DNA of 64,000 bases, taken from the NCBI RefSeq assembly GCF_056712565.1, contig NZ_CM160072.1; one strand, 5' to 3'. Below, piece by piece: positions 40,618-63,881 of the stretch (positions are counted from its first letter, which is position 1; every line of letters starts with the position of its first letter). Both the position numbers and the translations under genes were made by a program. Under the pieces are notes generated by a model. It did not search any database, had not been told where the DNA came from, and worked only from the letters and a program-made list of their open reading frames with translations.

Positions 40618-40659
40618 TAGATCATGCTCCTGCATGAAAACCACTACATAAAGCGGGCA

Positions 40660-40678
40660 GGCGTGGCGGGGATACGAG
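40660..40678. other. cos-like site (P2/186-type cohesive end sequence)
   Basis: GGCGTGGCGGGGATACGAG; first 13 nt identical to the 186 cohesive end (GGCGTGGCGGGGAAAGCAT) as recalled from the literature. Confidence 0.45.
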
Positions 40679-40692
40679 CGCGCGCTTGCACC

Positions 40693-40721
40693 TTGATATT
40701 CACGGTTTGGTTAAGTATTGT
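40693..40721 (+). promoter_or_regulatory. putative sigma70 promoter for the protease operon
   Basis: TTGATA-N17-TATTGT about 40 bp upstream of the protease start. Confidence 0.3.
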
Positions 40722-40761
40722 CTTAGTCAGAGTCCATAACATATTACAGAATGGAGTTGTT

Positions 40762-41409
40762 ATGATTGGTCCTGAATATGTCGTAGTTGTTGGCGTGCTT
40801 AATGCAGGTTTGGTTAGTTTTTTAGGAACAGGTTTTTTTATTTCTAAGGATAAAATAATTACTTCCCGCCATGTTATTAATGGGTTTTCTTCTAACTTAG
40901 TTATTTCTCCATCTAATATAAATAACTTTAATAGTTATCAGGATACAAGTGTTGATAAATTTCAATGTATTGGAGTTGATGTTATTGATGAAGATCCAAT
41001 AAAAGACTTATGTGTGTTAAAAATTAAAAATGCACCTGTTTATGAACCTTGCCTAAAAATTGCTACTCTTGACGATGTTAATGTCGGTGAAGATGTGGGT
41101 ATTTTAGGTTTCCCACATTGTAATGAAAATAGAAAAGTATTGACATTTCAAACGGCAAAAATAGGTGCAAAAGTTTTACTTTCAAGCAGTAATATTCAAT
41201 CTAAACATGCCGTTATAAATATCCAAACCAGACCTGGTCAATCGGGATCGATTGTATTTAATTTAAAAAATGACTCGGTAATAGGCGTCTTGGTTGGCGC
41301 TTATGCAAATAATTCTGGAGGTTCTGTTTTGGTTGGAGGTATTAATCCAGCTGAACTACATCAGACAACTTATGCGGTTTCTGCAGAATATGTTAAGGAT
41401 ATGTTATGA
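40762..41409 (+). CDS. trypsin-like (S1/chymotrypsin-fold) serine protease, stand-alone domain
   Basis: 216 aa from MIGPEYVVVVG... (GGAG RBS); candidate triad His in GTGFFISKDKIITSRHV, Asp in DLCVLKI, Ser in RPGQSGSIVF; about 30% GC. Confidence 0.75.
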   Translation: MIGPEYVVVVGVLNAGLVSFLGTGFFISKDKIITSRHVINGFSSNLVISPSNINNFNSYQDTSVDKFQCIGVDVIDEDPIKDLCVLKIKNAPVYEPCLKIATLDDVNVGEDVGILGFPHCNENRKVLTFQTAKIGAKVLLSSSNIQSKHAVINIQTRPGQSGSIVFNLKNDSVIGVLVGAYANNSGGSVLVGGINPAELHQTTYAVSAEYVKDML

Positions 41410-41852
41410 TTGCTATACCAAATGAAGATGCTGAGTCTTGGTTGTCCACTTTAAAAACGTATCAATCTTCATCTGTCAGGAATTTTCTCGAAAATGGCGA
41501 TGAAGAAAAGGCTCTTGAGCTATGGCTAACTGCATCTGGCCCAAGTTCAGTTGCTCAATTTGGCGGTGATAATTCAAAAATGCCGGGAAGAAAAGCGTTT
41601 GTTGAGCAGTTTAAATTAGAGTTTAAGGCTTTTGTATGTGGAGGTGATAAATATGCAGAGGAGAGGGAATGTTTAGGAGCACTGACTGGTGATGTTAAAA
41701 CATACTTTGTAGGGGTGATCTCTTCGGCAATTGCGGGTTCTTTGGGGGCAACAGCAACATTTATTGCTCCAGCTGTAGTAATTATGTTGATAGCTGTCTC
41801 AAAAATGGGAATTAATGCTTGGTGTTCATTAGAGACAACGACAGAATCTTAG
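41406..41852 (+). CDS. small tail-anchored membrane protein, partner of the protease
   Basis: 148 aa; start overlaps protease stop (ATGA); C-terminal Gly/Ala-rich hydrophobic helix YFVGVISSAIAGSLGATATFIAPAVVIMLIAVS; AT-rich. Confidence 0.6.
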   Translation: MIAIPNEDAESWLSTLKTYQSSSVRNFLENGDEEKALELWLTASGPSSVAQFGGDNSKMPGRKAFVEQFKLEFKAFVCGGDKYAEERECLGALTGDVKTYFVGVISSAIAGSLGATATFIAPAVVIMLIAVSKMGINAWCSLETTTES

Positions 41853-41880: not shown

Positions 41881-42906
41881 TAAATCATAATGCTGAAATC
41901 GGATAGTTTTCTCACCTAACCATTCATTAACTTCCATTATTCTTTTTTGGAGTGGAATTAGTTCATTTCTAACAAAAACCTTACTCGCCTTCTCCACATC
42001 CCCAAACCCTCCAACATTATTAGGCATTATCCCCATCATTTGTGGCGGCACACGATGCGCCGCCATCATGTCGTCCCGGCTCACGTTCTTGATATTCAGG
42101 AACTCATCCTTCGCCGCCACTTCTGACAACGGGATAATCTGAAGCCCGTCCTTTTTACCGTTAGGCGAGTACATAAACAGGTTACGGAAGTTACCAGGAC
42201 CTTTGGCACTTTTCATCGCGTTGCGGAGATTGTTCACATCCTCCTGATTCTGCGCGGCATCGGTCATATACATGATGAAGCCTGCATGGCTGCCGTTGAT
42301 GTAATACTTGCGGCGGAACAGCGTGGCGGACTTATTGAGCAGGGCTGACGGAATGGCAGAAAGATAGCCGGGCAGGCCGTAGATCTCCTGGTTGATGTCC
42401 GGTTCCATCAGATGAAAAATGCTGCCTTTCGTGAACTGATACGGCTGGGTTGTCATACCGTATTGCACAAACCAGTAGGTATCCAGGTCTAACCCGCGTC
42501 GGGTGTATTTTGCCAGCGCAGGATCAAGGGCGATAACTTCACCGAATCGGTTCGTGCGTTTCTCCAGGTAGGCGTTACCAAATACCAGATAGTCCTGCAC
42601 AAAACGCGAAAAAGCCTGCTGGCTGAGCAGCGGATGAGGGATATAGGTACTGGTCAGAATGTTGCACTTTACTGCAATCGGAGAACTGTGATGCACGGCG
42701 GCGCGGAAGGTGCGCGCCAGTCCGTCAAAGCTGACGGGCGGCTCATACCAGCGATCTGTCTGTACGCATTCCACATAGTCCAGCAGTTCACGGCGGTCCA
42801 GAACAGGAACGGGATCACCGAAGCTGAATGCTTCGGCTGAAGTCTGGCTTTTATGCTGGAGCTGGTTCGTCGACGCAGCGCGGTTCTTCTTACTCTTTCC
42901 CATCAA
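41878..42906 (-). CDS. Q: portal protein (P2 gpQ-like)
   Basis: 342 aa; size and position (upstream terminase on the same strand) match P2 Q. Confidence 0.88.
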   Translation of the reverse strand: MMGKSKKNRAASTNQLQHKSQTSAEAFSFGDPVPVLDRRELLDYVECVQTDRWYEPPVSFDGLARTFRAAVHHSSPIAVKCNILTSTYIPHPLLSQQAFSRFVQDYLVFGNAYLEKRTNRFGEVIALDPALAKYTRRGLDLDTYWFVQYGMTTQPYQFTKGSIFHLMEPDINQEIYGLPGYLSAIPSALLNKSATLFRRKYYINGSHAGFIMYMTDAAQNQEDVNNLRNAMKSAKGPGNFRNLFMYSPNGKKDGLQIIPLSEVAAKDEFLNIKNVSRDDMMAAHRVPPQMMGIMPNNVGGFGDVEKASKVFVRNELIPLQKRIMEVNEWLGEKTIRFQHYDL

Positions 42907-44582
42907 AAAATCTCCACAATATTACTGGTATTGGCGGACTCGCCCTGCAGTGGTTCGTTAAACAGTGCGTGCATTGTTGCCCAGGCCAGATCGGCGTGGC
43001 TGGCTTCTTCGCTGCGGCTGGCTTCATAGGTCGGGCGGTTGCCGCTGGCGGTGGTTGCGCGACGGATTGCCATGAATGACTGCGCAATGTCGGTGTGTCC
43101 GGCGTCAAACTCCAGACGGCGGTGGCTGATAATGTCGTAGGCCTTGAGTACCAGGGCGTTTTTAACGTTGGGGTTGTAGACAAACTCCCGGACGGCAGGA
43201 AAGAACGCTTTCACGTTCTCATAAACCCCGTGACCGACACCTGTCGAGTCGATGCCGATATATGTCACGTTGTACTGTTCGGTCAGTTTTTTGATGGCGT
43301 CCGCCTGGGCGCGGAAGTCCATCCCGCGCCACTGGTGACGCTCAAGAATACGGAACTTACCGCCCGGCACGGCTGGCGGAGCCACCACCACGCATCCGGC
43401 ACTGTCGCCGTTCTGCGTACCTTTTGCCGGGTCATAACCGATCCACACTTCGCGCCAGCCAAACGGGCGCAGCGCCAGTGCATGAAAGTCGGTCCAGACT
43501 TCCCAGCTGTCCACCATGCACGCCTGCAATTCGCTGAGCGGGAACACAGATGCGAGATCGTCAACGAACTCGCACATCAGCAGGTTCTGGTATTCGTCCG
43601 GGCTGTACTCCATGCGCAACTGGTCGAGGTCGAACAGGTTACAGCCGCCGCGTACCGCATCTTCCACGGTGACTATCTGGCGGTATTGCCCGTCTGCGCA
43701 CAGCAGGCCGGGGGCCAGATTGCTGTGGGACAGGTCGATGTCCACCTTATCGGCTTTGTTGCGCCCACGGTTGAACAACGCGCCGGACCAGAACGGATAA
43801 GCACTGTGGGTCAGGCTGGATGGCGTGGAAAAATAGGTCTGTCGCCATTTCTTGTGAATAGCCATACCGGAAGCCACTTTGCGCAGCTCCTGAAATTTTG
43901 GTATCCAGAAATATTCATCCAGATACAGGTTGCCGTGATAACTCTGGGCCGTGCGGGCATTGGTGCCTAGGAAGTAAAGCGTGGCCCCGTTAGGAAGCAC
44001 CATCGGATCGCCTTTCAGCTCCACCTCCACTTCTTTGGCGAAGTCGATGATGTACTGCTTAAAGACGTGGGCCTGTGCCTTACTGGCGGAAAGGAAAATC
44101 TGGTTACGCCCGGTAAGCAGAGCGTCAATCAGGGCTTCACGGGCAAAGTAAAAGGTTGCGCCGATCTGGCGTGACTTCAGCAGGTTGCGGATGCGGTTGT
44201 TTTTTCCGGCTTCCCACCAGTGGCGCTGGTAGTTGAACATGGAGGAATGGAAGATTTCTTCCAGCTTCTCAATCTGTTCATCGGTGAAAACGTTCTTTTC
44301 CGGCTGACGGCGCGGGCCTTTGTTGCGGTTGGCGACGTTAGGGTTTAAGTCGGCTTCGTTGCCGCCATTGTTAAACTTGCCGATCCGCGCATGGCGCTCC
44401 GACTGGCGCGCCAGCAGGTCAATCTCTTTGAAATCTTTCCCTTCTTTGTGCTCCTTCATAATGAGCTGGCAGTAGCGTGCGGCGGTGGTGAGCTGCATCT
44501 GATCCAGCGGCCCATAGTCACCCCACTTGTCGCGTTTTTTCCAGCTGTTCCAGTAAGTTTTTTCTAACGGAGCACGGCTCAT
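42903..44582 (-). CDS. P: terminase large subunit (P2 gpP-like)
   Basis: About 559 aa (ORF could extend to 44630 or start later); Walker-type ATPase plus nuclease; overlaps the portal start. Confidence 0.88.
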   Translation of the reverse strand: MSRAPLEKTYWNSWKKRDKWGDYGPLDQMQLTTAARYCQLIMKEHKEGKDFKEIDLLARQSERHARIGKFNNGGNEADLNPNVANRNKGPRRQPEKNVFTDEQIEKLEEIFHSSMFNYQRHWWEAGKNNRIRNLLKSRQIGATFYFAREALIDALLTGRNQIFLSASKAQAHVFKQYIIDFAKEVEVELKGDPMVLPNGATLYFLGTNARTAQSYHGNLYLDEYFWIPKFQELRKVASGMAIHKKWRQTYFSTPSSLTHSAYPFWSGALFNRGRNKADKVDIDLSHSNLAPGLLCADGQYRQIVTVEDAVRGGCNLFDLDQLRMEYSPDEYQNLLMCEFVDDLASVFPLSELQACMVDSWEVWTDFHALALRPFGWREVWIGYDPAKGTQNGDSAGCVVVAPPAVPGGKFRILERHQWRGMDFRAQADAIKKLTEQYNVTYIGIDSTGVGHGVYENVKAFFPAVREFVYNPNVKNALVLKAYDIISHRRLEFDAGHTDIAQSFMAIRRATTASGNRPTYEASRSEEASHADLAWATMHALFNEPLQGESANTSNIVEIF

Positions 44583-45930
44583 GACAGTGAAAGCAAAGCG
44601 TTTTCGCATCGGGGTGGAAGGTGCCACCACCGACGGACGCGAAATCCAGCGTGAATGGCTGGAACAGATGGCAGCCAGCTACAACCCGGCGGTGTATACC
44701 GCGCTGATTAACCTTGAGCACATCAAGTCTTATATACCGGACAGCACCTTTAACCGCTACGGCAAGGTGACGGCGCTGTTTGCTGAAGAAATCACGGAAG
44801 GTCCGCTGGCAGGCAAGATGGCGCTGTATGCCGACGTTGAGCCAACGGAGTCCCTGGTGGAACTGGTGAAAAAAGGCCAGAAATTATTCACCTCTATGGA
44901 AGTCAGCCCGAAGTTCGCTGATACGGGCAAAGCCTACCTGGTCGGCCTGGCTGCCACTGATGACCCTGCCAGTCTGGGTACGGAAATGCTGACATTCAGC
45001 GCCAGTGCAGCCCATAACCCGCTGGCAAACCGCAAGCAGAATCCTGCCATGACTGAGCAGTCCGGTCAGCTGCTGGGGCTGGGTGTTGGCAGCACCATTG
45101 CCGGAACCACTGACACCACCGCAAAAGAGCGTGAACCTGTCGATCCGACGCTGATGGTCGATGTGGAATATAAATGCGAGCAGACCAACTTTGACACGGT
45201 GCTGACCTACGCGAAGCTGGACCTGTGGGCGAAGTTTCAGGATTTCCAGGTGCGTATCCGTGACGCCATCGTGAAACGTCAGGCACTGGACCGCATCATG
45301 ATCGGCTTTAACGGCGTGAAGCGTGCGAAAACCTCCAACCGTAGTGAAAACCCGCTGCTGCAGGATGTGAACAAAGGCTGGCTGCAGAAAATCCGTGAGG
45401 ATGCACCGGATCACGTCATGGGCAGCACCACCACGGGCGGCGAAACCACACCGGGTGCGGTGAAAGTCGGTAAAGGGGGCGAATATGCCAACTTGGACGC
45501 TGTGGTGATGGATGCGGTCAATGAGCTTATCGACGTGGTCTACCAGGACGATGACGATCTGGTGGTGATTTGCGGTCGTGAACTGCTGTCTGACAAGTAT
45601 TTCCCGCTGGTCAACAAAGAGCAGGAAAACAGTGAAAAATTGGCAGCCGATATGATTATCAGTCAGAAACGCATGGGCGGTCTGCAGGCCGTGCGTGCGC
45701 CGTTCTTCCCGCCGAATGCGCTGCTGATCACCCGTCTGGATAACCTGTCCATCTACTGGCAGGAAGACACCCGCCGCCGTTCAGTTATCGACAACCCGAA
45801 ACGTGACCGGATTGAAAACTTTGAATCCGTTAACGAAGCCTATGTGGTTGAGGACTACCGCTGCGCCGCACTGGTGGAAAACATCCAGATTGGTGATTTC
45901 AGCGCCGCCGCAGCCGAAACCGGAGCGTAA
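44581..45930 (+). CDS. scaffold/protease (gpO-like N-terminus) fused in frame to major capsid (gpN-like) C-terminal region
   Basis: 449 aa; N-terminus FRIGVEGATTDGR...TSMEVSPKFADTGKAYLVGLAATDDPASLGTE resembles gpO; C-terminus YKCEQTNFD...LDLWAKFQDFQVRIRDAI...GFNGVKRA resembles gpN; interval is about 0.65 kb shorter than the O+N pair in P2. Confidence 0.65.
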   Translation: MTVKAKRFRIGVEGATTDGREIQREWLEQMAASYNPAVYTALINLEHIKSYIPDSTFNRYGKVTALFAEEITEGPLAGKMALYADVEPTESLVELVKKGQKLFTSMEVSPKFADTGKAYLVGLAATDDPASLGTEMLTFSASAAHNPLANRKQNPAMTEQSGQLLGLGVGSTIAGTTDTTAKEREPVDPTLMVDVEYKCEQTNFDTVLTYAKLDLWAKFQDFQVRIRDAIVKRQALDRIMIGFNGVKRAKTSNRSENPLLQDVNKGWLQKIREDAPDHVMGSTTTGGETTPGAVKVGKGGEYANLDAVVMDAVNELIDVVYQDDDDLVVICGRELLSDKYFPLVNKEQENSEKLAADMIISQKRMGGLQAVRAPFFPPNALLITRLDNLSIYWQEDTRRRSVIDNPKRDRIENFESVNEAYVVEDYRCAALVENIQIGDFSAAAAETGA

Positions 45931-55931: not shown

Positions 55932-56375
55932 ATGGAAATGGTTTATAGCGCCTCAAATAATAGTTTTTTCGCTAAAAATGATGTGGCGAAATATGAACAG
56001 GCCGGATGGGAACTTGCTGATATTGTCGAAGTGACATATGACACTTACCTGGAATTTATTGAAGACAGAACGTTGCAAGGGAAAGTACGCATCGCGGGTG
56101 ATGATGGCCTTCCCACCTGGGGGGAAATTCCACCGCCAACTCATGAGGAACAAATTGCCGCAGCCGAACTGGAAAAGCAGCAATTGATTAATCAGGTCAA
56201 CGAATACATATACAGTAAGCAATGGCCTGGTAAAGCAGCGATTGGTCGCCTGAAAGGTGAGGAACTGGCGCAATATAATTTGTGGCTGGATTATCTGGAC
56301 GCACTGGAACTGGTTGATACCTCCAGTGCTCCAGATATTGAATGGCCTACGCCTCCGGCAGTTCAGGCCAGATGA
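55932..56375 (+). CDS. tail fibre assembly protein
   Basis: 147 aa; C-terminal LDYLDALELVDTSSAPDIEWP motif shared with the convergent paralog. Confidence 0.8.
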   Translation: MEMVYSASNNSFFAKNDVAKYEQAGWELADIVEVTYDTYLEFIEDRTLQGKVRIAGDDGLPTWGEIPPPTHEEQIAAAELEKQQLINQVNEYIYSKQWPGKAAIGRLKGEELAQYNLWLDYLDALELVDTSSAPDIEWPTPPAVQAR

Positions 56376-56949
56376 CGTCCGGCGCTGTGCTGGTATCTGT
56401 TGCCGTCACCGCATCAATGTAATCCAGCACAGCGTTAAGTCGGGTGTTTTCTGTCTGCGTCAGCTTCCGCCCGGCCTGCAATTTCAGTTGAATCAGACTA
56501 ATGGAAGCCATTGCAGTATCAATCAGTGACTGACGCTGTGCTTCTGCCGCGTCTAGTGTGGCGCTATGCTGTGCCTCAGTATCTGTCACCCATTTCTCAC
56601 CATCCCATTCATCGTATGGCGTTAACGGGGCGATAGTGGTTGTATTTTCAGGGTAATCACCTGGTGCTGTGATTTCTTTTGATTCTCCTGTTTCGGTGCT
56701 AAAAACGATTTCACCGCGATGGTCTGGCACATATTCCCATGAGTTAAAATCTGCAGAACGGCAGATTGCATAACCAGCTTTACATGTAACTGGTGAATCT
56801 AAACAGGAATATGCAGGGATACCGACACCAATGGCAAGATATTCATTTGAAGTAGAAATATATTCCCGAGTTTTACCATCATAGTTATAGACGGTAATAT
56901 TCCCCGCCTTCGTGGCAATAATCTCGCTATTTAATACGGCGTTATCCAT
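56347..56949 (-). CDS. tail fibre assembly protein (alternative, opposite orientation)
   Basis: 200 aa; C-terminal LDYIDAVTATDTSTAPDVIWP. Confidence 0.75.
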   Translation of the reverse strand: MDNAVLNSEIIATKAGNITVYNYDGKTREYISTSNEYLAIGVGIPAYSCLDSPVTCKAGYAICRSADFNSWEYVPDHRGEIVFSTETGESKEITAPGDYPENTTTIAPLTPYDEWDGEKWVTDTEAQHSATLDAAEAQRQSLIDTAMASISLIQLKLQAGRKLTQTENTRLNAVLDYIDAVTATDTSTAPDVIWPELPEA

Positions 56950-57404
56950 TATGCAGCCCTTACGATATAGTTAAATGCAATATTTCGTGGACGGGTTTCG
57001 CTTCCGCCATATGATGATGTAAATCCCGAATATGCCCGGTGTCCCGCATCCGTCGTATTAGCCCAGGAAGGACCGCTAGAAGTATAGATGACCCCATTGT
57101 AATCATGGCCGTGTGCCTCAATGCTCCCGTCCTGAGCAGACAGGAGAGTCCGTCCTGAATCAATTCCTCTTCCATCATCCCACCCACGAATGAATTCGCC
57201 GCGTAAATCTGGCAATTTATTTGTCGGATAAACTTTTGCCAGTTCCGGATACTCTTCGGCAGAAAAAGCTGCACCGTTGCATTTCAGCCAGCCTGTTGGC
57301 GGTGTGACTGAAGGCCACGGAACAGGCACACCTACGGGTAATGCAGAGCCTTCTCCTAAACCAACGTTTAAGAAAATGCAGCGATTACGACTAACTGGCA
57401 TCAT
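56949..57404 (-). CDS. alternative tail fibre C-terminal segment (silent in this orientation)
   Basis: 151 aa ORF whose 5' end contains the right crossover site and encodes VGLGEGS, matching YLGLGEAA at the left site in H. Confidence 0.65.
   Translation of the reverse strand: MMPVSRNRCIFLNVGLGEGSALPVGVPVPWPSVTPPTGWLKCNGAAFSAEEYPELAKVYPTNKLPDLRGEFIRGWDDGRGIDSGRTLLSAQDGSIEAHGHDYNGVIYTSSGPSWANTTDAGHRAYSGFTSSYGGSETRPRNIAFNYIVRAA
57351..57376. promoter_or_regulatory. DNA invertase crossover site (right)
   Basis: TTCTCCTAAACCAACGTTTAAGAAAA, imperfect dyad; inverted relative to 55560–55585. Confidence 0.6.
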
Positions 57405-57431
57405 CCCCGGTTTTTATTCAAGGAGATGATC

Positions 57432-57998
57432 ATGCTTATTGGCTATGTACGCGTGTCAACAAATGACCAGAACACCGATTTGCAACGTAGTGCGCTGAAC
57501 TGCGCGGGATGTGAGCGGATTTTTGAGGACAAAATCAGTGGCACTAAGTCCGACAGACCGGGGCTTAAAAAACTGCTCAGGACACTATCGGCAGGTGACA
57601 CACTGGTTGTCTGGAAGCTGGACAGGTTGGGGCGCAGTATGCGGCATCTTGTTACGCTGATAGAAGAGTTGCGCCAGCGCGGCGTGAATTTCCGAAGTCT
57701 GACTGACAGTATTGATACCAGTACCCCAATGGGCAGTTTCTTTTTTCATGTCATGGGTGCCCTGGCTGAAATGGAACGCGAACTGATAGTTGAACGTACC
57801 AGGGCAGGGCTGGCTGCAGCTCGTGCTAAAGGCAGAGTAGGTGGACGCCGTCCTAAGTTGACTACCGAACAGTGGGCACAGATTGGGCGTTTACTCGAGG
57901 CCGGAGAATCAAGACAGCGTATTGCACTGATTTTTGATGTAGGCGTTTCTACCATTTATAGAAAATTTCCGGCAAATAAGAGCAATGAATCTCCCTGA
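57432..57998 (+). CDS. serine recombinase, Hin/Gin/Pin-type DNA invertase
   Basis: About 188 aa; MLIGYVRVSTNDQNTDLQ with catalytic Ser, resolvase domain plus C-terminal HTH (VSTIYRKF). Confidence 0.9.
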   Translation: MLIGYVRVSTNDQNTDLQRSALNCAGCERIFEDKISGTKSDRPGLKKLLRTLSAGDTLVVWKLDRLGRSMRHLVTLIEELRQRGVNFRSLTDSIDTSTPMGSFFFHVMGALAEMERELIVERTRAGLAAARAKGRVGGRRPKLTTEQWAQIGRLLEAGESRQRIALIFDVGVSTIYRKFPANKSNESP

Positions 57999-58140: not shown

Positions 58141-59313
58141 ATGGCTCAGGATTACCACCACGGAGTGCGCGTTGTTGAAGTCAACGAAGGCACCCGATCC
58201 ATTACCACGGTGAGCACCGCCATCGTGGGTATGGTCTGCACGGGCGATGATGCCGATGCAAAAATGTTTCCTCTTAATAAACCCGTGCTGATCACTGATG
58301 TGCTGACTGCCAGCGGTAAAGCGGGCGAGTCCGGTACGCTGGCCCGTTCGCTGGATGCCATCGCTGACCAGGCAAAACCCGTGACCGTTGTTGTGCGTGT
58401 GCCGCAGGGTGAAACGGAAGAAGAAACCACGACCAATATCATCGGCGCAGTGACTGCTGAAGGTAAAAAAACAGGCATGAAAGCCCTGTTATCTGCCCAG
58501 TCACAGCTCGGCGTTAAACCGCGCATTCTCGGCGTGCCAGGTCACGACACGAAGGCGGTAGCTACTGAGTTGCTGAGCGTGGCGCAAAGCCTGCGTGGAT
58601 TTGCTTACCTGTCAGCGTATGGTTGCAAGACGGTGCAGGAAGCAATCACTTACCGTGAAAACTTCAGTCAGCGTGAAGGAATGCTGATCTGGCCCGACTT
58701 TACTGGCTGGGACACGGTGCTGAATGCCGAAGCAACGGCTTATGCCACCGCCCGTGCGCTTGGTCTGCGCGCCAAAATTGACGAGCAGACCGGATGGCAC
58801 AAAAGCCTGTCCAACGTAGGCGTTAACGGTGTCACCGGAATTTCTGCTGATGTGTTCTGGGATCTGCAGGACCCGGCAAGCGATGCGGGACTGCTGAACC
58901 AGAACGACGTCACCACCCTTATCCGCAAAGACGGTTTTCGCTTCTGGGGTTCCCGCTGCCTGAGTGATGACCCGCTCTTTGCCTTCGAAAACTACACCCG
59001 CACGGCGCAGGTGCTGACGGACACAATGGCAGAAGCGCACATGTGGGCAGTGGACAAACCGCTGAACCCGTCGCTGGCGCGCGACATTATCGAGGGCATC
59101 CGCGCCAAAATGCGCAGCCTGGTCAGTCAGGGGTATCTCATTGGTGGTGATTGCTGGCTGGATGAGTCGGTGAACGACAAAGACACTCTGAAAGCCGGAA
59201 AACTCACCATCGACTACGACTACACGCCAGTGCCGCCACTTGAAAACCTGATGTTGCGTCAGCGCATCACCGATCAGTACCTGGTGAATTTCGCCAGCCA
59301 GGTCAGCGCGTAA
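58141..59313 (+). CDS. FI: contractile tail sheath protein (P2 gpFI-like)
   Basis: 390 aa; size and position before the tube gene. Confidence 0.88.
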
Positions 59314-59322
59314 GGGGACAAC

Positions 59323-59838
59323 ATGGCTTTACCACGCAAATTAAAACACCTGAACCTGTTTAACGACGGGAACAACTGGCAGGGGATCGTTGAGTCGCTG
59401 ACGCTGCCGAAATTCACCCGCAAATATGAGAAGTATCGCGGCGGCGGAATGCCGGGGGCAGTGGATGTGGATCTGGGGCTTGATGACAGTGCGCTGGACA
59501 CAGAATTTTCCATTGGTGGTACTGAACTGCTGCTGTTTAAGCAGATAGGCAAAGCCACGGTGGATGGCATCCAGTTGCGCTTTACCGGCTCTATCCAGCG
59601 TGACGATACCGGGGAAGTGCAGGCCGTGGAGCTTGTGGTGCGTGGACGTCACAAAGAAGTGGATTCCGGTGAGTGGAAGACGGGCGAAAGCAACACCACC
59701 AAAGTGACCAGTACCAACAGCTACGCGAAGCTGACCATCAATGGTGAGGTGCTCTATGAAGTGGACCTTATCAACATGGTGGAAATTGTGGACGGTGTGG
59801 ACCTGATGGAAGCGCACCGCAACGCTCTCGGCCTCTGA
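59323..59838 (+). CDS. FII: tail tube protein (P2 gpFII-like)
   Basis: 171 aa. Confidence 0.88.
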   Translation: MALPRKLKHLNLFNDGNNWQGIVESLTLPKFTRKYEKYRGGGMPGAVDVDLGLDDSALDTEFSIGGTELLLFKQIGKATVDGIQLRFTGSIQRDDTGEVQAVELVVRGRHKEVDSGEWKTGESNTTKVTSTNSYAKLTINGEVLYEVDLINMVEIVDGVDLMEAHRNALGL

Positions 59839-59892
59839 TGTATCTGAACGGCGCGGAATGCCGCGCCAGAACCCAATTTACAGGACAACAAA

Positions 59893-60195
59893 ATGAGCGA
59901 TAAGCAGACTGAAAAGACCATTCAACTGGATACCCCTATCAAGCGCGGTAAAACAGAAATTACCGAAATTGTGCTGCGTAAACCGCAGTCCGGTGCGCTG
60001 CGCGGTACACGCCTGCAGGCCATTATGGATATGGATGTGAACGCGATGATGACCGTGATCCCCCGCATCTCCAGTCCGGCACTGACTGCACAGGAAATTG
60101 CAGAGATGGACCCGGCAGATCTCACTGCCATGTCGGTTGAGGTTGTCACTTTTTTGTTGAAGAAGTCGGTGCTTGCCGGTTTACCGACAGCCTGA
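59893..60195 (+). CDS. E: tail assembly chaperone (gpE-like)
   Basis: 100 aa; contains slippery site near its 3' end. Confidence 0.8.
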   Translation: MSDKQTEKTIQLDTPIKRGKTEITEIVLRKPQSGALRGTRLQAIMDMDVNAMMTVIPRISSPALTAQEIAEMDPADLTAMSVEVVTFLLKKSVLAGLPTA

Positions 60196-60328
60196 CGGTT
60201 GACGATCTGGTGGCTGATATCGCCACCATCTTTCACTGGCCGCCATCCGTTACTGACGTTATGGCGCTGACCGAAGTGCTGGAATGGCGGTATAAAGCGA
60301 TTCAGAGAAGCGGGGCCAACGATGAGTG
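59893..60328 (+). CDS. gpE+E' -1 frameshift product (tail chaperone extension)
   Basis: Slippery heptamer T_TTT_TTG at 60150–60156; the -1 frame stays open to a TGA at 60326–60328, overlapping the tape-measure start at 60322. Confidence 0.6.
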
Positions 60329-63300
60329 ATAATAACCTGCGCCTGCAGGTCATTCTTAATGCGGTTGACAAACTCACCCGCCCATTCCGTGCTGCACAGG
60401 CCAGTTCGAAAGAGCTGGCTGGCGCAATTCAGAATACCCGAAACAGCCTCAAAGAACTGAATAAGCAGGCTGGCAGAATTGATGAATTTCGCAAGACGCG
60501 CTCGCAACTAGCCATAACAGCCAACAACCTGAACGCAGCCCGCGAAGAGGCGGCAAAACTCGCCACACAATTTGCTGCCACTAACAGGCCAACCGCCGCG
60601 CAGGCAAAGTTATTCAGTCAGGCCAAAACACGAGTACAGGAACTTCAGCAGACCTATAACGGCTTGTTGGGGGCGGTCCAAAGACAACGTCAGGCACTTA
60701 AAGAATCAGGGATTGATACCAGACAACTCAGTAGTGCCCAGCGAGAACTTAAGAAAAATGCTGAAGAAACAAGGCAGGCACTGGAGGGTCAGCAAAAAGC
60801 ACTTAAACGTCTGGGTGAACAACAGGCACGGATGAACGCTGCCAGAGAACAATACTCAAGACGGCTTGAAGTGCGCGATCGCATCGCAGGAGCCGGAGCC
60901 ACTACCACGGCTGCAGGGCTGGCAATGGGTGCGCCAGTGATGGCGGCAGTAAAAAGCTATACCAGCATGGAAGATGCCATGAAAGGTGTGGCAAAGCAGG
61001 TCAATGGTCTGCGTGACGATAATGGCAACCGCACTGTACGTTTTTATGAAATGCAGGATGCCATCAAGGCTGCCAGCGAACAGTTGCCGATGGAAAACGG
61101 TGCGGTGGACTTCGCTGCACTGGTTGAAGGTGGTGCGCGCATGAACGTCGCAAACCCTGACGACAGCTGGGAAGACCAGAAACGTGACCTGCTGGCCTTC
61201 GCCAGTACGGCAGCAAAGGCGGCAACAGCCTTTGAGCTGCCAGCGGATGAACTGTCAGAAAGTCTGGGGAAAATCGCCCAGCTCTACAAAATACCTACCC
61301 GCAATATTGAACAGCTCGGCGATGCACTGAACTATCTGGATGATAACGCCATGTCGAAAGGGGCGGACATCATTGATGTGATGCAACGTCTGGGCGGTGT
61401 GGCTGACCGTCTGGATTATCGTAAAGCGGCGGCACTGGGTTCCACCTTTCTGACACTGGGCGCTGCGCCGGAGGTTGCAGCCAGTGCAGCAAACGCGATG
61501 GTGCGTGAATTGTCCATTGCCACCATGCAAAGCAAGAGTTTCTTTGAAGGGATGAATCTGCTGAAACTCAATCCTGAAGTGATTGAAAAGCAGATGACGA
61601 AGGATGCGATGGGAACTATCCAGCGTGTGCTGGAGAAGGTGAACGCACTGCCGCAGGACAAGCGTCTGTCTGCCATGACCATGTTGTTTGGTAAAGAGTT
61701 TGGTGATGACGCGGCGAAACTGGCAAACAACCTTCCGGAACTGCAGCGCCAGCTAAAACTGACAGCGGGCAATGATGCGCTCGCTTCCATGCAGAAAGAA
61801 TCCGACATTAACAAGGACTCACTTTCTGCGCAGTGGTTGCTGATCAAAACCGGAGCGCAGAACACCTTCAGCAGCCTGGGCGAGACGCTGCGCCAGCCGC
61901 TGATGGATATTCTGTACACGGTGAAAAGCATCACGGGGGCGTTGCGCCGCTGGGTGGAAGCTAACCCGGGACTGACAGGCACACTGATGAAAGTAGCCGC
62001 TGTGGTGGCTGCGGTTACCGTAGGCCTCGGCACCTTAGCGGTAGCGCTGGCTGCAGTGCTGGGGCCGCTGGCAGTGATCCGTCTGGGATTCTCTGTGCTG
62101 GGTATCAAAACGTTACCTTCCGTTACGGCAGCAGTAACTCGAACCAGCAGCGCGTTGTCCTGGCTGGCTGGCGCACCACTGGCACAGCTGCGACGCGGGC
62201 TTGCTTCATCGGGCAACGCCGCGGGTTTACTTACTGCGCCGTTGTCGTCTTTGCGCCGCACGGCATCACTGACGGGAAATGTCCTGAAAACTGTAGCAGG
62301 TGCGCCGGTTGCACTGTTGCGGTCTGGATTATCCGGTTTACGTGCGGTTGCTGTGATGTTTATGAATCCACTGGCAGCACTACGCGGTGGACTGACCGCC
62401 GCAGGCGCGGTGCTGCGAGTACTGGCATCTGGTCCACTGGCGATGTTGCGCGTTGCCCTGTATGCCGTATCTGGTCTGTTAGGTGCTCTGCTTAGTCCAA
62501 TAGGTCTTGTGGTTACAGCACTGGCGGGTGTGGCACTGGTTGTCTGGAAATACTGGCAACCCATCACCGCATTTCTCGGTGGCGTGGTGGAAGGATTCAA
62601 AGCAGCGGCTGGTCCCGTCAGTGCCGCATTCGAACCACTTAAGCCTGTGTTCCAGTGGATTGGCGACAAAGTGCAGGCGTTGTGGGGCTGGTTTACTGAT
62701 CTGCTGACGCCCGTTAAGTCGACCTCTGCTGAACTGCAGAGCGCAGCGGCAATGGGGCAACGATTCGGGGAGGCACTGGCGGAAGGACTGAATATGGTCA
62801 TGCATCCGCTGGACTCCCTGAAATCCGGCGTATCCTGGTTGCTGGAAAAACTCGGCATTGTCAGTAAAGAGGCCGCAAAGGCAAAACTGCCGGAACGCGT
62901 GACGCGTCAGCAACCTGCGACGGTGAATGCAGACGGCAAAGTGATGATGCCATCGGGTGGTTTTCCGTCATGGGGATATGGCTTTGCGGGGATGTATGAC
63001 AGCGGCGGCTATATCCCGCGCGGGCAGTTTGGCATCGTCGGTGAAAACGGGCCGGAAATTGTTAACGGCCCGGCAAATGTGACCAGCCGGAAAAATACCG
63101 CTGCACTGGCTGCTGTTGTTGCCGGAATGATGGGCGTTGCTGCCGCGCCTGCAGAGCTTCCACCGTTACATCCTTTGGCACTTCCCGCGAAAGGCGGCGA
63201 AGCGATGGTGAGTCGTGCAGCCACTGTGCCGCCCGTTCAACGGATTGAGGCACCGACGCAGATCATCATTCAGACGCAGCCAGGACAAAGTGCGCAGGAT

Positions 63301-63399
63301 ATTGCGCGGGAGGTGGCCCGTCAGCTTGATGAACGTGAACGCAGGCTGAAGGCAAAAGCCAGGAGTAACTACAGCGATCAGGGGGGATACGACGCATGA
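60322..63399 (+). CDS. T: tail tape measure protein (gpT-like)
   Basis: 1025 aa; coiled-coil N-terminus, Gly/Ala-rich hydrophobic central segments. Confidence 0.9.
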   Translation: MSDNNLRLQVILNAVDKLTRPFRAAQASSKELAGAIQNTRNSLKELNKQAGRIDEFRKTRSQLAITANNLNAAREEAAKLATQFAATNRPTAAQAKLFSQAKTRVQELQQTYNGLLGAVQRQRQALKESGIDTRQLSSAQRELKKNAEETRQALEGQQKALKRLGEQQARMNAAREQYSRRLEVRDRIAGAGATTTAAGLAMGAPVMAAVKSYTSMEDAMKGVAKQVNGLRDDNGNRTVRFYEMQDAIKAASEQLPMENGAVDFAALVEGGARMNVANPDDSWEDQKRDLLAFASTAAKAATAFELPADELSESLGKIAQLYKIPTRNIEQLGDALNYLDDNAMSKGADIIDVMQRLGGVADRLDYRKAAALGSTFLTLGAAPEVAASAANAMVRELSIATMQSKSFFEGMNLLKLNPEVIEKQMTKDAMGTIQRVLEKVNALPQDKRLSAMTMLFGKEFGDDAAKLANNLPELQRQLKLTAGNDALASMQKESDINKDSLSAQWLLIKTGAQNTFSSLGETLRQPLMDILYTVKSITGALRRWVEANPGLTGTLMKVAAVVAAVTVGLGTLAVALAAVLGPLAVIRLGFSVLGIKTLPSVTAAVTRTSSALSWLAGAPLAQLRRGLASSGNAAGLLTAPLSSLRRTASLTGNVLKTVAGAPVALLRSGLSGLRAVAVMFMNPLAALRGGLTAAGAVLRVLASGPLAMLRVALYAVSGLLGALLSPIGLVVTALAGVALVVWKYWQPITAFLGGVVEGFKAAAGPVSAAFEPLKPVFQWIGDKVQALWGWFTDLLTPVKSTSAELQSAAAMGQRFGEALAEGLNMVMHPLDSLKSGVSWLLEKLGIVSKEAAKAKLPERVTRQQPATVNADGKVMMPSGGFPSWGYGFAGMYDSGGYIPRGQFGIVGENGPEIVNGPANVTSRKNTAALAAVVAGMMGVAAAPAELPPLHPLALPAKGGEAMVSRAATVPPVQRIEAPTQIIIQTQPGQSAQDIAREVARQLDERERRLKAKARSNYSDQGGYDA

Positions 63400-63881
63400 T
63401 GATGGTGCTGGGATTGTACGTGTTTATGCTGCGCACCGTGCCGTATCAGGAGCTGCAGTATCAACGCAGCTGGCGACATGCGGCAAACAGCAGGGTAAAC
63501 CGTCGTCCGTCCACGCAGTTTCTGGGACCGGAAAACGACATGCTGACGCTTTCCGGTGTTCTTATGCCGGAGATAACAGGCGGCAGGCTGTCGTTACTGG
63601 CACTGGAGCAGATGGCAGAACAGGGGAAAGCATGGCCCCTGATTGAAGGAAGCGGCACGATTTACGGCATGTATGTGATTGAGGGACTGAATCAGACTAA
63701 AACGGAGTTTTTCCGCGACGGTATGCCGCGCCGGATTGAGTTCACCCTGTCGCTAAAACGGGTGGATGAATCCCTGTCCGATATGTTCGGTGATCTCAGT
63801 ACTCAACTGAATAATCTGCAGGACACGGCAACGTCTGCTTTAAGCGATATCAGTAAAACGGTTGGAGGGCTGCTGTCGTGA
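63396..63881 (+). CDS. U: tail protein (gpU-like)
   Basis: 161 aa; follows T with overlapping start. Confidence 0.85.
   Translation: MMMVLGLYVFMLRTVPYQELQYQRSWRHAANSRVNRRPSTQFLGPENDMLTLSGVLMPEITGGRLSLLALEQMAEQGKAWPLIEGSGTIYGMYVIEGLNQTKTEFFRDGMPRRIEFTLSLKRVDESLSDMFGDLSTQLNNLQDTATSALSDISKTVGGLLS

What the first reader, a model, noticed from the sequence alone, without database searches (positions are those of the whole stretch)
59893..60328. Conserved -1 programmed frameshift site in the tail chaperone gene (E/E+E')
The heptamer T_TTT_TTG lies near the 3' end of gpE, and the -1 frame stays open for a further 57 codons ending exactly over the tape-measure start. This matches the P2 E/E+E' and lambda G/GT paradigm and supports a functional tail assembly module.
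Basis: partly seen in the sequence, partly recalled or inferred. Interest (0 to 1): 0.3.

Follow-up and report, generated by a model that had tools for sequence, protein, structure and literature searches.

The report
Known P2-type tail chaperone frameshift site
This is the well-known "slippery" signal of P2-like phages that makes a small share of ribosomes shift reading frame and build a longer tail-assembly helper protein; it is real and strongly conserved here, but it is ordinary and already described.

Summary
gpE is ORF 59893-60195. The heptamer T_TTT_TTG sits at 60150-60156 in the X_XXY_YYZ register. The -1 frame then stays open for exactly 57 codons, to TGA at 60327-60329. That stop overlaps the tape-measure ATG (60322) by 8 nt.

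- The conceptual 145-aa fusion matches Pfam Phage_TAC_7 and Phage_P2_GpE (each E about 1e-18).
- It aligns without gaps to P2 gpE+E' across the junction (49% identity, E 1e-51).
- P2's annotated frameshift site is the same heptamer at the same aligned position.
- In 227 related viral contigs, 225 have TTTTTTG and 2 have TTTTTTA, always in register. The six T's never vary in 168 distinct sequences, although the two bases before them do.
- Third-codon-position variation switches from frame 0 to frame -1 downstream.

The window is an E. coli P2/Fels-2-like prophage. Public annotation splits E and a 39-aa "GpE family" piece, and the fused protein is in no database searched.

Novelty: already known. 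Possible extras are weakly supported: a clade-specific hairpin 8 nt downstream and an upstream SD-like GAGGU.

Side finding: the prophage's head genes carry two private deletions, so an induced-lysate test may fail.

The parts
59893..60195 (+). gpE, the tail assembly chaperone made by standard frame-0 translation (100 aa)
   Evidence: ORF. Matches PF10109 Phage_TAC_7 (E 1e-18) and phrog_103 (4e-44). RefSeq names it 'phage tail assembly protein'. The exact protein is found on at least 1000 public contigs.
60150..60156 (+). Slippery heptamer T_TTT_TTG. The P-site codon is UUU and the A-site codon is UUG before the -1 slip.
   Evidence: Register checked. It is identical to P2's heptamer and aligns with P2's annotated frameshift site. 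Of 227 IMG/VR relatives, 225 have TTTTTTG and 2 have TTTTTTA, all in register. T60150-T60155 never vary in 168 distinct sequences, while the preceding bases 60148-60149 vary in about 33%.
60156..60329 (+). E' extension in the -1 frame: 57 codons plus the TGA stop. The conceptual E+E' CDS is join(59893..60156, 60156..60329), 145 aa.
   Evidence: Translation. Matches PF06528 Phage_P2_GpE (E 1e-18) and phrog_1756 over residues 3-57 of the extension. Third-position variation follows the -1 frame (0.142 against 0.045 and 0.023). The alignment to P2 gpE+E' is gapless through the junction. In the AlphaFold model (pLDDT 89.8) helix 74-92 crosses the junction at 88|89.
60210..60329 (+). The 39-aa ORF starting at GTG that public annotation calls a separate 'GpE family phage tail protein'. 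I judge it an annotation artefact of the unmodelled frameshift.
   Evidence: RefSeq CDS. It has the weakest Shine-Dalgarno complementarity of the nine starts scored (-3.0 kcal/mol, against -4.0 to -11.5 for the tail-gene starts FI, FII, E, T and U). Homology in the -1 frame continues 18 codons upstream of it.
60322..60329 (+). ATGAGTGA: the start codon of the tape-measure gene T overlapped by the last codons and stop of E'
   Evidence: An ATG lies under the end of E' in all 227 relatives and in P2, PSP3, ENT90, Carl1, RS-AB1 and the Aeromonas phage.
60322..63399 (+). Gene T, tape measure protein (1025 aa)
   Evidence: PF10145 PhageMin_Tail, E 2e-18. RefSeq name.
59323..59838 (+). Gene FII, tail tube protein, the upstream neighbour
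   Evidence: PF04985 Phage_tube, E 2e-59.
60165..60188 (+). Candidate stimulatory stem-loop GUCGGU-N12-ACCGAC, 8 nt after the heptamer. An alternative 3' arm lies at 60175-60180. Weak support.
   Evidence: 99.3% of cells are paired across 67 distinct sequences. The inner pair 60170/60183 is UA in 36, CG in 18, UG in 12 and broken in 1, and 0 of 500 shuffles reach this. The alternative arm is 98.8% paired, with one-sided changes only. Thermodynamic signal is weak (z -1.0 to -1.8) and absent in P2, ENT90, phiCTX and Carl1.
60139..60143 (+). Shine-Dalgarno-like GAGGU, 6 nt upstream of the heptamer. Possible 5' stimulator, unproven.
   Evidence: It is at or near the strongest anti-SD match in the whole gpE gene in the window, RE2010, P2, PSP3, phiCTX, Carl1, RS-AB1, Klebsiella ST11 phage and MLG42. 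The GAG third base is invariant in 168 sequences. However, the spacing is shorter than the 9-14 nt reported for -1 stimulators.

Best explanation
This is the gpE / gpE+E' tail-assembly-chaperone gene pair of a P2/Fels-2-like E. coli prophage, expressed through -1 programmed ribosomal frameshifting.

Most ribosomes read gpE in frame 0 and stop at 60195, giving a 100-aa product. A minority slip back one base when tRNA-Phe (on UUU) and tRNA-Leu (on UUG) occupy T_TTT_TTG at 60150-60156. They re-pair on UUU UUU and continue in the -1 frame for 57 codons. The result is a 145-aa fusion with the junction ...VVTFL|VEEVG.... These ribosomes stop on top of the tape-measure start codon.

By analogy with lambda G/GT, the shared E part would bind the tape measure protein T. 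The E' part would recruit the tube protein FII. The fixed low ratio of the two products would be what matters for tail assembly.

Shown here: the anatomy, the homology in both frames, the conservation of the signal, and selection acting on the -1 frame.

Inferred: that slippage really occurs in this prophage, its efficiency, and the binding roles of the two parts.
For: Anatomy and register of the heptamer.

Homology. The fusion matches Pfam PF10109 and PF06528, each at E about 1e-18, and PHROG tail families 103 and 1756. BLASTP against P2 gpE+E' gives 49% identity over 139 residues with no gaps across the junction, E 1e-51.

P2 reference. P2 record AF063097 annotates E, the joined CDS E+E' and a 'site of -1 translational frameshift' directly after the same heptamer. 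My reconstruction of the P2 products gives 91 and 142 aa, matching the published sizes (PMC3091744).

Conservation. In 388 of 425 phage records the fused query matches as one place covering at least 80% of its length; every full-length match listed is in two pieces, which I read as the two reading frames. In-frame TTTTTTG is present in 11 of 15 diverse P2-like phages; the others have TTTTTTC, TTTTTTT, GGGAAAG or CCCTTTC. It is present in 225 of 227 IMG/VR relatives. The heptamer T's are invariant while flanking bases vary, and codon periodicity switches from frame 0 to frame -1.

Structure. The AlphaFold model of the fusion is confident (pLDDT 89.8, pTM 0.81), with a helix running through the junction.

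Literature. P2 frameshifts at TTTTTTG (PMC3091744). Lambda G:GT is 30:1, and efficiency in P2 and relatives is 2- to 3-fold higher (PMC5009743).
Against: There is no direct evidence of the extended product from this prophage.

A GTG at 60210, and an ATG or GTG at the same aligned position in many relatives, could in principle start E' on its own.

The G of the heptamer is also constrained as the first base of the -1 frame codon, so its conservation is not independent evidence for the slip mechanism.

The primary experimental paper on P2 (Christie et al. 2002) was not available in the library. The experimental basis is therefore cited second-hand.
Confidence: 0.93

Rival explanations
1. E' is a separate small gene, translated independently from GTG 60210 as a 39-aa protein, as RefSeq and GenBank annotate it. 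No frameshift is needed.
For: PGAP and several phage records annotate a stand-alone 39-aa 'GpE family phage tail protein'. That exact 39-aa sequence is on 413 contigs. Many relatives have ATG or GTG at the same aligned position. Pfam PF06528 and phrog_6416 begin at that residue.
Against: The GTG has the weakest Shine-Dalgarno complementarity of the nine starts scored (-3.0 kcal/mol, against -4.0 to -11.5 for FI, FII, E, T and U). Homology in the -1 frame continues through the 18 codons between the heptamer and the GTG, and joins seamlessly to gpE in the P2 alignment. phrog_1756 covers that stretch. Ralstonia RS-AB1 (Ala) and Vibrio MAR (Trp) have no start codon at that position. This rival does not explain why the heptamer is invariant. 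In P2 the fused product is the annotated, essential gene product.
Confidence: 0.04
2. The fusion is made, but mainly by RNA polymerase slippage on the T6 run. Insertion of one U in the mRNA would do this, rather than ribosomal slippage.
For: The site is a homopolymer of six T's, and one extra U would put ribosomes in the same -1 frame. Two relatives have TTTTTTA and one has TTTTTTT, showing that the seventh base is not strictly required.
Against: By established knowledge, bacterial transcriptional slippage becomes productive on runs of about 8-9 or more A/T, and six is short. Homologous genes in other P2-like phages use non-homopolymeric X_XXY_YYZ heptamers at the same place: G_GGA_AAG in the Mannheimia phage (annotated as slippery) and C_CCT_TTC in Klebsiella ST16-OXA48phi5.4. 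These fit tandem tRNA slippage and not polymerase stuttering. The register of the run relative to frame 0 is conserved in 227 of 227 relatives; polymerase slippage would not require that.
Confidence: 0.03
3. The heptamer and the open -1 frame are coincidental, and the 126-nt stretch between gpE and T is non-coding spacer.
For: Heptamers of this kind are common: 66 in frame in the window, and 31 TTTTTTG against 20.6 expected. About 6% of -1 frames after such heptamers run 57 codons or more.
Against: The -1 frame matches a curated protein family at E 1e-18. It shows third-position-biased variation in that frame. It is conserved from enterobacteria to Burkholderia, Ralstonia, Pseudomonas, Vibrio and Zymomonas elements.
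Confidence: 0.005

Closest known systems
Bacteriophage P2 genes E and E+E' (-1 programmed frameshift at TTTTTTG in the FI-FII-E-T-U-D tail operon; Christie et al. 2002, as cited in PMC3091744; GenBank AF063097)
   Same: Same gene order. Same heptamer in the same register at the same aligned residue (...GFL|VAE... in P2...TFL|VEE... here). Same 57-codon extension. The same kind of overlap between the E' stop and the T start. 49% protein identity without gaps.
   Different: gpE here is 100 aa against 91 aa in P2, because its frame-0 tail after the heptamer is 12 residues rather than 6. The sequences have diverged to about 49% identity. This lineage may have a short hairpin 8 nt downstream, which P2 is reported to lack and which my folding also does not find in P2.
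Fels-2-like Peduoviridae: Salmonella phages RE-2010 and SopEPhi, Yersinia phage MLG42, Klebsiella phage 4LV2017, Escherichia phages Cartapus and 500465-1
   Same: 84-98% DNA identity over the E/E'/T junction. The architecture, heptamer and T overlap are identical. These are the true family of the window's prophage.
   Different: Nothing of substance. Their records annotate E and E' as two separate CDSs rather than a joined frameshift product. The same applies to the RefSeq annotation of this exact sequence.
Phage lambda G / GT tail assembly chaperones (-1 frameshift at G_GGA_AAG; G:GT about 30:1)
   Same: Same position between the tube/major-tail gene and the tape-measure gene. Same logic: a short product plus a rare C-terminally extended product from one start. 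The presumed roles also match, with the common part binding the tape measure and the extension binding the tube protein (PMC5009743).
   Different: No detectable sequence homology: only PF10109 and PF06528 match, not the lambda G or T families. Fold similarity to the N15 GT protein is not significant (E 1.2). The heptamer differs. Reported efficiency in P2-type phages is 2- to 3-fold higher.
E. coli dnaX -1 frameshift (A_AAA_AAG with an upstream Shine-Dalgarno-like stimulator and a downstream hairpin)
   Same: Here too an SD-like GAGGU lies upstream and a possible stem-loop lies 8 nt downstream of an X_XXY_YYZ heptamer.
   Different: The SD-like element is only 6-7 nt from the heptamer, against the 9-14 nt reported to stimulate -1 shifts. 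The hairpin is short (6 bp, about -6 kcal/mol) and weakly supported. There is no evidence that either element acts.

Membership tests
P2-type gpE / gpE+E' tail assembly chaperone pair with -1 programmed ribosomal frameshift | The gene pair lies between the tail tube gene (FII) and the tape measure gene (T) in a contractile-tail operon | tested here: met
   FI 58141-59313, FII 59323-59838, E 59893-60195, T 60322-63399 and U 63396-63881, each with matching Pfam families. RefSeq annotation of the identical prophage agrees.
P2-type gpE / gpE+E' tail assembly chaperone pair with -1 programmed ribosomal frameshift | The upstream ORF is homologous to P2 gpE | tested here: met
   PF10109, E 1e-18. phrog_103, 4e-44. 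Aligned to P2.
P2-type gpE / gpE+E' tail assembly chaperone pair with -1 programmed ribosomal frameshift | The -1 frame overlapping the 3' end of E encodes a homologue of P2 E', with homology starting at the shift site | tested here: met
   PF06528, E 1e-18. phrog_1756 covers residues 3-57 of the extension. Gapless alignment through the junction. Twelve-phage alignment. Codon periodicity follows the -1 frame.
P2-type gpE / gpE+E' tail assembly chaperone pair with -1 programmed ribosomal frameshift | Slippery heptamer T_TTT_TTG in X_XXY_YYZ register at the position of P2's annotated frameshift site | tested here: met
   Conserved in 225 of 227 relatives and invariant in 168 distinct sequences.
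P2-type gpE / gpE+E' tail assembly chaperone pair with -1 programmed ribosomal frameshift | E' has no translation start of its own | tested here: inconclusive
   A GTG exists at 60210, but with the weakest SD match of the nine starts scored (-3.0 kcal/mol). The aligned residue is Met or Val in most relatives but Ala or Trp in two.
P2-type gpE / gpE+E' tail assembly chaperone pair with -1 programmed ribosomal frameshift | The extended product is really made at a set ratio and is needed for tail assembly | not testable with these tools
   Needs a reporter assay, mass spectrometry or genetics. Known for P2 only through annotation and secondary citation.
Lambda G/GT tail assembly chaperones | Sequence or fold homology to lambda gpG and the T domain | tested here: not met
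   hmmscan returns only PF10109 and PF06528. No PDB sequence or fold match. N15 GT appears only at E 1.2 in BFVD.
Lambda G/GT tail assembly chaperones | [quoted passage not shown] | tested here: met
   Anatomy. This is a functional and positional analogy as described in PMC5009743.
dnaX-type stimulated -1 frameshift site | Shine-Dalgarno-like sequence 9-14 nt upstream of the heptamer | tested here: not met
   GAGGU at 60139-60143 lies 6 nt (7 nt from GAGG) before the heptamer. The 9-14 nt range is from PMC5009743.
dnaX-type stimulated -1 frameshift site | A stable stem-loop 5-9 nt downstream of the heptamer, supported by covariation | tested here: inconclusive
   A 6-bp stem sits 8 nt downstream with one compensatory pair. 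The minimum-free-energy structure shows no covariation. z-scores are only -1.0 to -1.8 and the signal is absent in P2.

The most novel reading that the evidence does not exclude
In this Fels-2-like lineage the frameshift may do more than make E+E'.

First, only ribosomes that have shifted terminate on the tape-measure start. The ATGAGTGA overlap is kept in 227 of 227 relatives and in P2, whereas frame-0 ribosomes stop 127 nt upstream. Tape-measure synthesis could therefore be translationally coupled to E+E' synthesis, which would fix their stoichiometry.

Second, lineage-specific cis elements could tune the shift rate. These are a 6-bp hairpin 8 nt downstream with a compensatory U-A to C-G pair, and an upstream SD-like GAGGU. 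That would run against the published view that P2-type sites have no stimulatory structure.
Probability: 0.2. Interest if true: 0.3.

Novelty: already known. Interest (0 to 1): 0.08.

Why it matters
It matters little for discovery. The P2 E/E+E' frameshift and its conservation in tailed phages are textbook recoding examples.

Its practical value is for annotation. The exact gpE protein is on at least 1000 public contigs, and the 39-aa piece is on 413 contigs as a separate 'GpE family' protein. The true 145-aa product is absent from a collection of 15 billion proteins. Automated pipelines therefore systematically miss this recoded gene in the Fels-2-like group.

The intact site also argues that the tail operon of this prophage has been under recent purifying selection, even though its head genes are damaged in this particular sequence.

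Tried and rejected
- The heptamer count alone is not informative: 31 TTTTTTG against 20.6 expected, and 66 in-frame X_XXY_YYZ heptamers.
- The 81-nt minimum-free-energy fold downstream of the site looked good (z -2.9). On 67 distinct relatives it has no compensatory pair and many broken pairs, so I rejected it. The distal hairpin at 60208-60228 is more than 50 nt from the site, too far to act on a ribosome positioned there.
- NCBIfam gave no match for E or for the fusion.
- The PDB sequence search and the Foldseek search against the PDB gave nothing significant. BFVD returned only short gpE-like models and non-significant chaperone hits.
- The first IMG/VR scan returned 80 loci with 100% identical gpE, which are useless for covariation. 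Two further scans seeded with the Klebsiella and RE-2010 proteins gave the needed diversity.
- The primary paper (Christie et al. 2002, PMC135442) is not held in the library.
- The 151-aa antisense ORF at 59922-60377 has no Pfam match. It also cannot explain the switch of the variable codon position between the E and E' zones, so I treat it as spurious.
- The in-frame G_GGG_GGA near the end of T, which leads into a long -1 ORF, is simply the ribosome-binding site and reading frame of gene U.
- Invariance of the GAG third base upstream of the heptamer is not unique. Two GAA codons elsewhere in gpE are also invariant. The SD-like idea therefore rests mainly on its recurrence across different phage genera.

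Full report
**What is in the sequence.**
The region lies in the tail operon of a P2/Fels-2-like prophage. The ORFs are:
- FI, tail sheath, 58141-59313
- FII, tail tube, 59323-59838
- a 100-aa ORF, 59893-60195
- T, a 1025-aa tape-measure protein, 60322-63399
- U, 63396-63881

Each has the expected Pfam family. In the 100-aa ORF, TTTTTTG lies at 60150-60156. Frame 0 reads ACT TTT TTG, which is the T_TTT_TTG register needed for tandem -1 slippage. Re-reading G60156 in the -1 frame gives exactly 57 sense codons and a TGA at 60327-60329. That stop overlaps the tape-measure ATG at 60322 as ATGAGTGA.

**Is it more than chance?**
The heptamer alone is not significant. TTTTTTG occurs 31 times in the window against 20.6 expected. 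There are 66 in-frame X_XXY_YYZ heptamers in 63 long ORFs. Among these 66 there is no second genuine example of the full pattern. The only other heptamer that leads into a long -1 frame running past its gene's stop is the ribosome-binding site of gene U.

The -1 frame is demonstrably coding:
- The conceptual 145-aa fusion matches PF10109 (gpE-type tail assembly chaperone) over residues 9-88. It matches PF06528 (P2 GpE, which corresponds to the E' part) over residues 107-143. Each match has E about 1e-18.
- PHROG 1756 covers residues 3-57 of the extension, so the match starts almost at the shift site.

**Comparison with P2 itself.**
GenBank AF063097 annotates gene E, a joined CDS E+E' ('-1 frameshift; essential tail protein') and a 'site of -1 translational frameshift'. 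That site lies immediately after the same TTTTTTG, in the same register.

Applying my fusion rule to P2 gives products of 91 and 142 aa. These are the sizes published for P2 (PMC3091744). The window's fusion aligns to P2's over 139 residues with no gap: 49% identity, E 1e-51. The junctions are superimposed...VVTFL|VEEVGA... on ...VVGFL|VAELGA....

**Conservation.**
- A tblastn search of the fusion against 50,697 phage records matches 425 of them. In 388, one place covers at least 80% of the fused query, and every full-length match listed is in two pieces; I read these as the two reading frames.
- Of 15 diverse P2-like elements, 11 have in-frame TTTTTTG. The hosts are Escherichia, Salmonella, Yersinia, Klebsiella, Erwinia, Pseudomonas, Burkholderia, Ralstonia, Aeromonas, Vibrio, Mannheimia and Zymomonas. 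The other four have TTTTTTC, TTTTTTT, GGGAAAG or CCCTTTC at the equivalent place.
- In 227 IMG/VR contigs of the Fels-2/Kapieceevirus group, 225 have TTTTTTG and 2 have TTTTTTA. All are in register, all have a 57- or 58-codon extension, and all end over an ATG.
- In 168 distinct sequences (78-99.8% identical to the window), the six T's never vary. This includes the synonymous third positions 60150 and 60153. The two bases just before the run vary in about a third of the sequences.
- The position-specific variation is 0.067 / 0.035 / 0.259 (codon positions 1 / 2 / 3 of frame 0) upstream of the heptamer. It is 0.045 / 0.023 / 0.142 in the -1 frame downstream of the gpE stop. Purifying selection therefore changes frame at this site.
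- The long antisense ORF at 59922-60377 cannot explain this switch, and it has no family match.

**Structure.**
With a 12-sequence alignment of conceptual fusions, AlphaFold2 gives a confident single-body model (pLDDT 89.8, pTM 0.81). Helix 74-92 runs straight through the junction between residues 88 and 89. This fits a fused protein better than two separate ones. No solved structure resembles it. The best matches among predicted viral structures are 83-89-aa gpE-like proteins. Other tail chaperones, including N15 GT, appear only at non-significant scores.

**Mechanism.**
The best explanation is the published P2 mechanism. While UUU is in the P site and UUG in the A site, both tRNAs slip back one base and re-pair on UUU UUU. 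Translation continues in the -1 frame to give gpE+E'.

The review PMC5009743 gives the lambda G:GT ratio as 30:1 and states that efficiency in P2 and relatives is 2- to 3-fold higher. It also describes the lambda model. The shared part binds the tape measure, the frameshift-encoded part binds the tube protein, and neither ends up in the virion. These roles are inferred for the present genes and not shown.

**Rivals.**
1. Independent initiation of a 39-aa E' at GTG 60210. RefSeq and several phage records annotate it this way. It is unlikely for four reasons. The start has the weakest Shine-Dalgarno match of the nine starts scored. Homology continues 18 codons upstream of it. Two distant relatives have no start codon at that position. 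And it does not explain the invariant heptamer.
2. Transcriptional slippage on T6. This is unlikely as the main route. The run is short, its register relative to frame 0 is conserved, and homologues use non-homopolymeric heptamers such as G_GGA_AAG.
3. Coincidence. Homology and codon periodicity exclude it.

**Possible stimulators (weak).**
The literature reports no hairpin downstream of the P2 site (PMC3091744), and my folds agree for P2, ENT90, phiCTX and Carl1.

In the window's own lineage, a 6-bp stem GUCGGU-N12-ACCGAC (60165-60188) starts 8 nt after the heptamer. It is 99.3% paired in 67 distinct sequences. Its inner pair is U-A in 36, C-G in 18, U-G in 12 and broken in 1, and 0 of 500 shuffles reach this level.

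The support is limited:
- There is only one covarying pair, and it is largely confined to one clade.
- The same 5' arm can also pair with 60175-60180, with 98.8% pairing and one-sided changes only.
- The thermodynamic signal is weak, with z of -1.0 to -1.8.
- The minimum-free-energy structure is not supported by covariation.

Upstream, an SD-like [G/A]AGGU(G) sits about 6 nt before the heptamer. It is at or near the strongest anti-SD match in the whole gene in nine of the TTTTTTG-bearing phages. This is closer than the 9-14 nt reported to stimulate -1 shifts. The invariance of its third-position G is not unique within the gene.

**Context and novelty.**
The window is E. coli chromosome running from ldtB to rcdA. 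From about 31.7 kb onward it is a prophage inserted between rcdA and ybjL. The closest sequenced phages are Fels-2-like Peduoviridae.

The exact gpE protein is on at least 1000 public contigs. The 39-aa piece is on 413. The 145-aa fusion is absent from the 15-billion-protein collection. The biology is already known; only the annotation is deficient. Interest is low.

**Bearing on the proposed test.**
Compared with 100%-identical prophages in complete genomes, this window lacks two segments.
- One is 231 bp covering the terminase 5' end and the divergent intergenic region.
- The other is about 554 bp. Its loss fuses the scaffold gene (profile positions 2-152 of 268) in frame to the capsid gene (positions 53-327 of 327).

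Neither junction exists in any of 5,426 complete E. coli genomes. The tail operon looks intact, but an induced lysate of such a prophage may contain no particles. Expression of the tail operon from a plasmid would be the safer test.

Noticed in passing
window 44548|44549 and about 45046-45049 (ORFs 42903-44630 on the - strand and 44581-45930 on the + strand): Relative to otherwise 100%-identical prophages (for example E. coli APEC 16-1068), the window lacks two segments. One is 231 bp: the terminase ATPase 5' end plus most of the divergent intergenic region. The other is about 554 bp, and its loss creates a 449-aa in-frame scaffold(GPO)::major-capsid fusion. Neither junction is contiguous in any of 5,426 complete E. 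coli genomes. The prophage is probably head-defective, or the sequence is misassembled or edited.
   Followed up: partly
window 49966-51921 (+): A 652-aa OLD-family protein (AAA_15 ATPase plus OLD-like TOPRIM domain; PADLOC AriA 1e-21, Old 2e-11) is inserted as cargo between the tail-completion genes and baseplate gene V. In APEC 16-1068 the same gene is annotated as two AAA ATPase CDSs.
   Followed up: partly
window 40624-41406 and 41406-41849 (+): A gene pair of a trypsin-like peptidase and a small partner matches the PADLOC candidate defence system PDC-M35 (M35A 8e-94, M35B 4e-58). It sits between the replication module and the portal gene.
   Followed up: partly
window 59850-59867 (+), the FII-E intergenic gap: A GC-rich stem-loop, GGCGCGG-AAUG-CCGCGCC, with no U-tract (z -2.6). 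Hairpins of different sequence occupy the same gap in P2, PSP3, ENT90 and a Klebsiella phage, but not in Burkholderia Carl1. A Mannheimia phage record annotates a terminator there. It may be a partial terminator or an mRNA-stability element that sets sheath/tube expression against chaperone/tape-measure expression.
   Followed up: partly
window 60139-60143 (+) and equivalent positions in L001, L002, L004-L007, L012, L015: A Shine-Dalgarno-like [G/A]AGGU(G) lies about 6 nt upstream of the slippery heptamer. It is at or near the strongest anti-SD match in gpE in nine TTTTTTG-bearing phages from several genera. The spacing is shorter than the 9-14 nt known to stimulate -1 shifts.
   Followed up: partly
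window 56347-57998: A Hin/Gin-type recombinase gene (57426-57998, +) lies next to tail-fibre and fibre-assembly ORFs on the opposite strand (56347-57404, -). These follow a tail-fibre assembly gene on the + strand (55932-56375). This is the layout of an invertible host-range switch.
   Followed up: no
window 60210-60329 (+); public databases: Automated annotation (PGAP, RefSeq viral, several GenBank phage records) calls E' a separate 39-aa 'GpE family phage tail protein' starting at GTG. The true 145-aa frameshift product of this prophage is absent from a collection of 15 billion proteins.
   Followed up: yes
L003 (CP019275.1, E. coli p13P477T-2, 37,446 bp circular): The best phage-collection hit to the E/E' region (98.7%) is a 37-kb circular 'plasmid' that carries the whole tail module. 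It may be a P2-like phage genome assembled or maintained as an episome.
   Followed up: no
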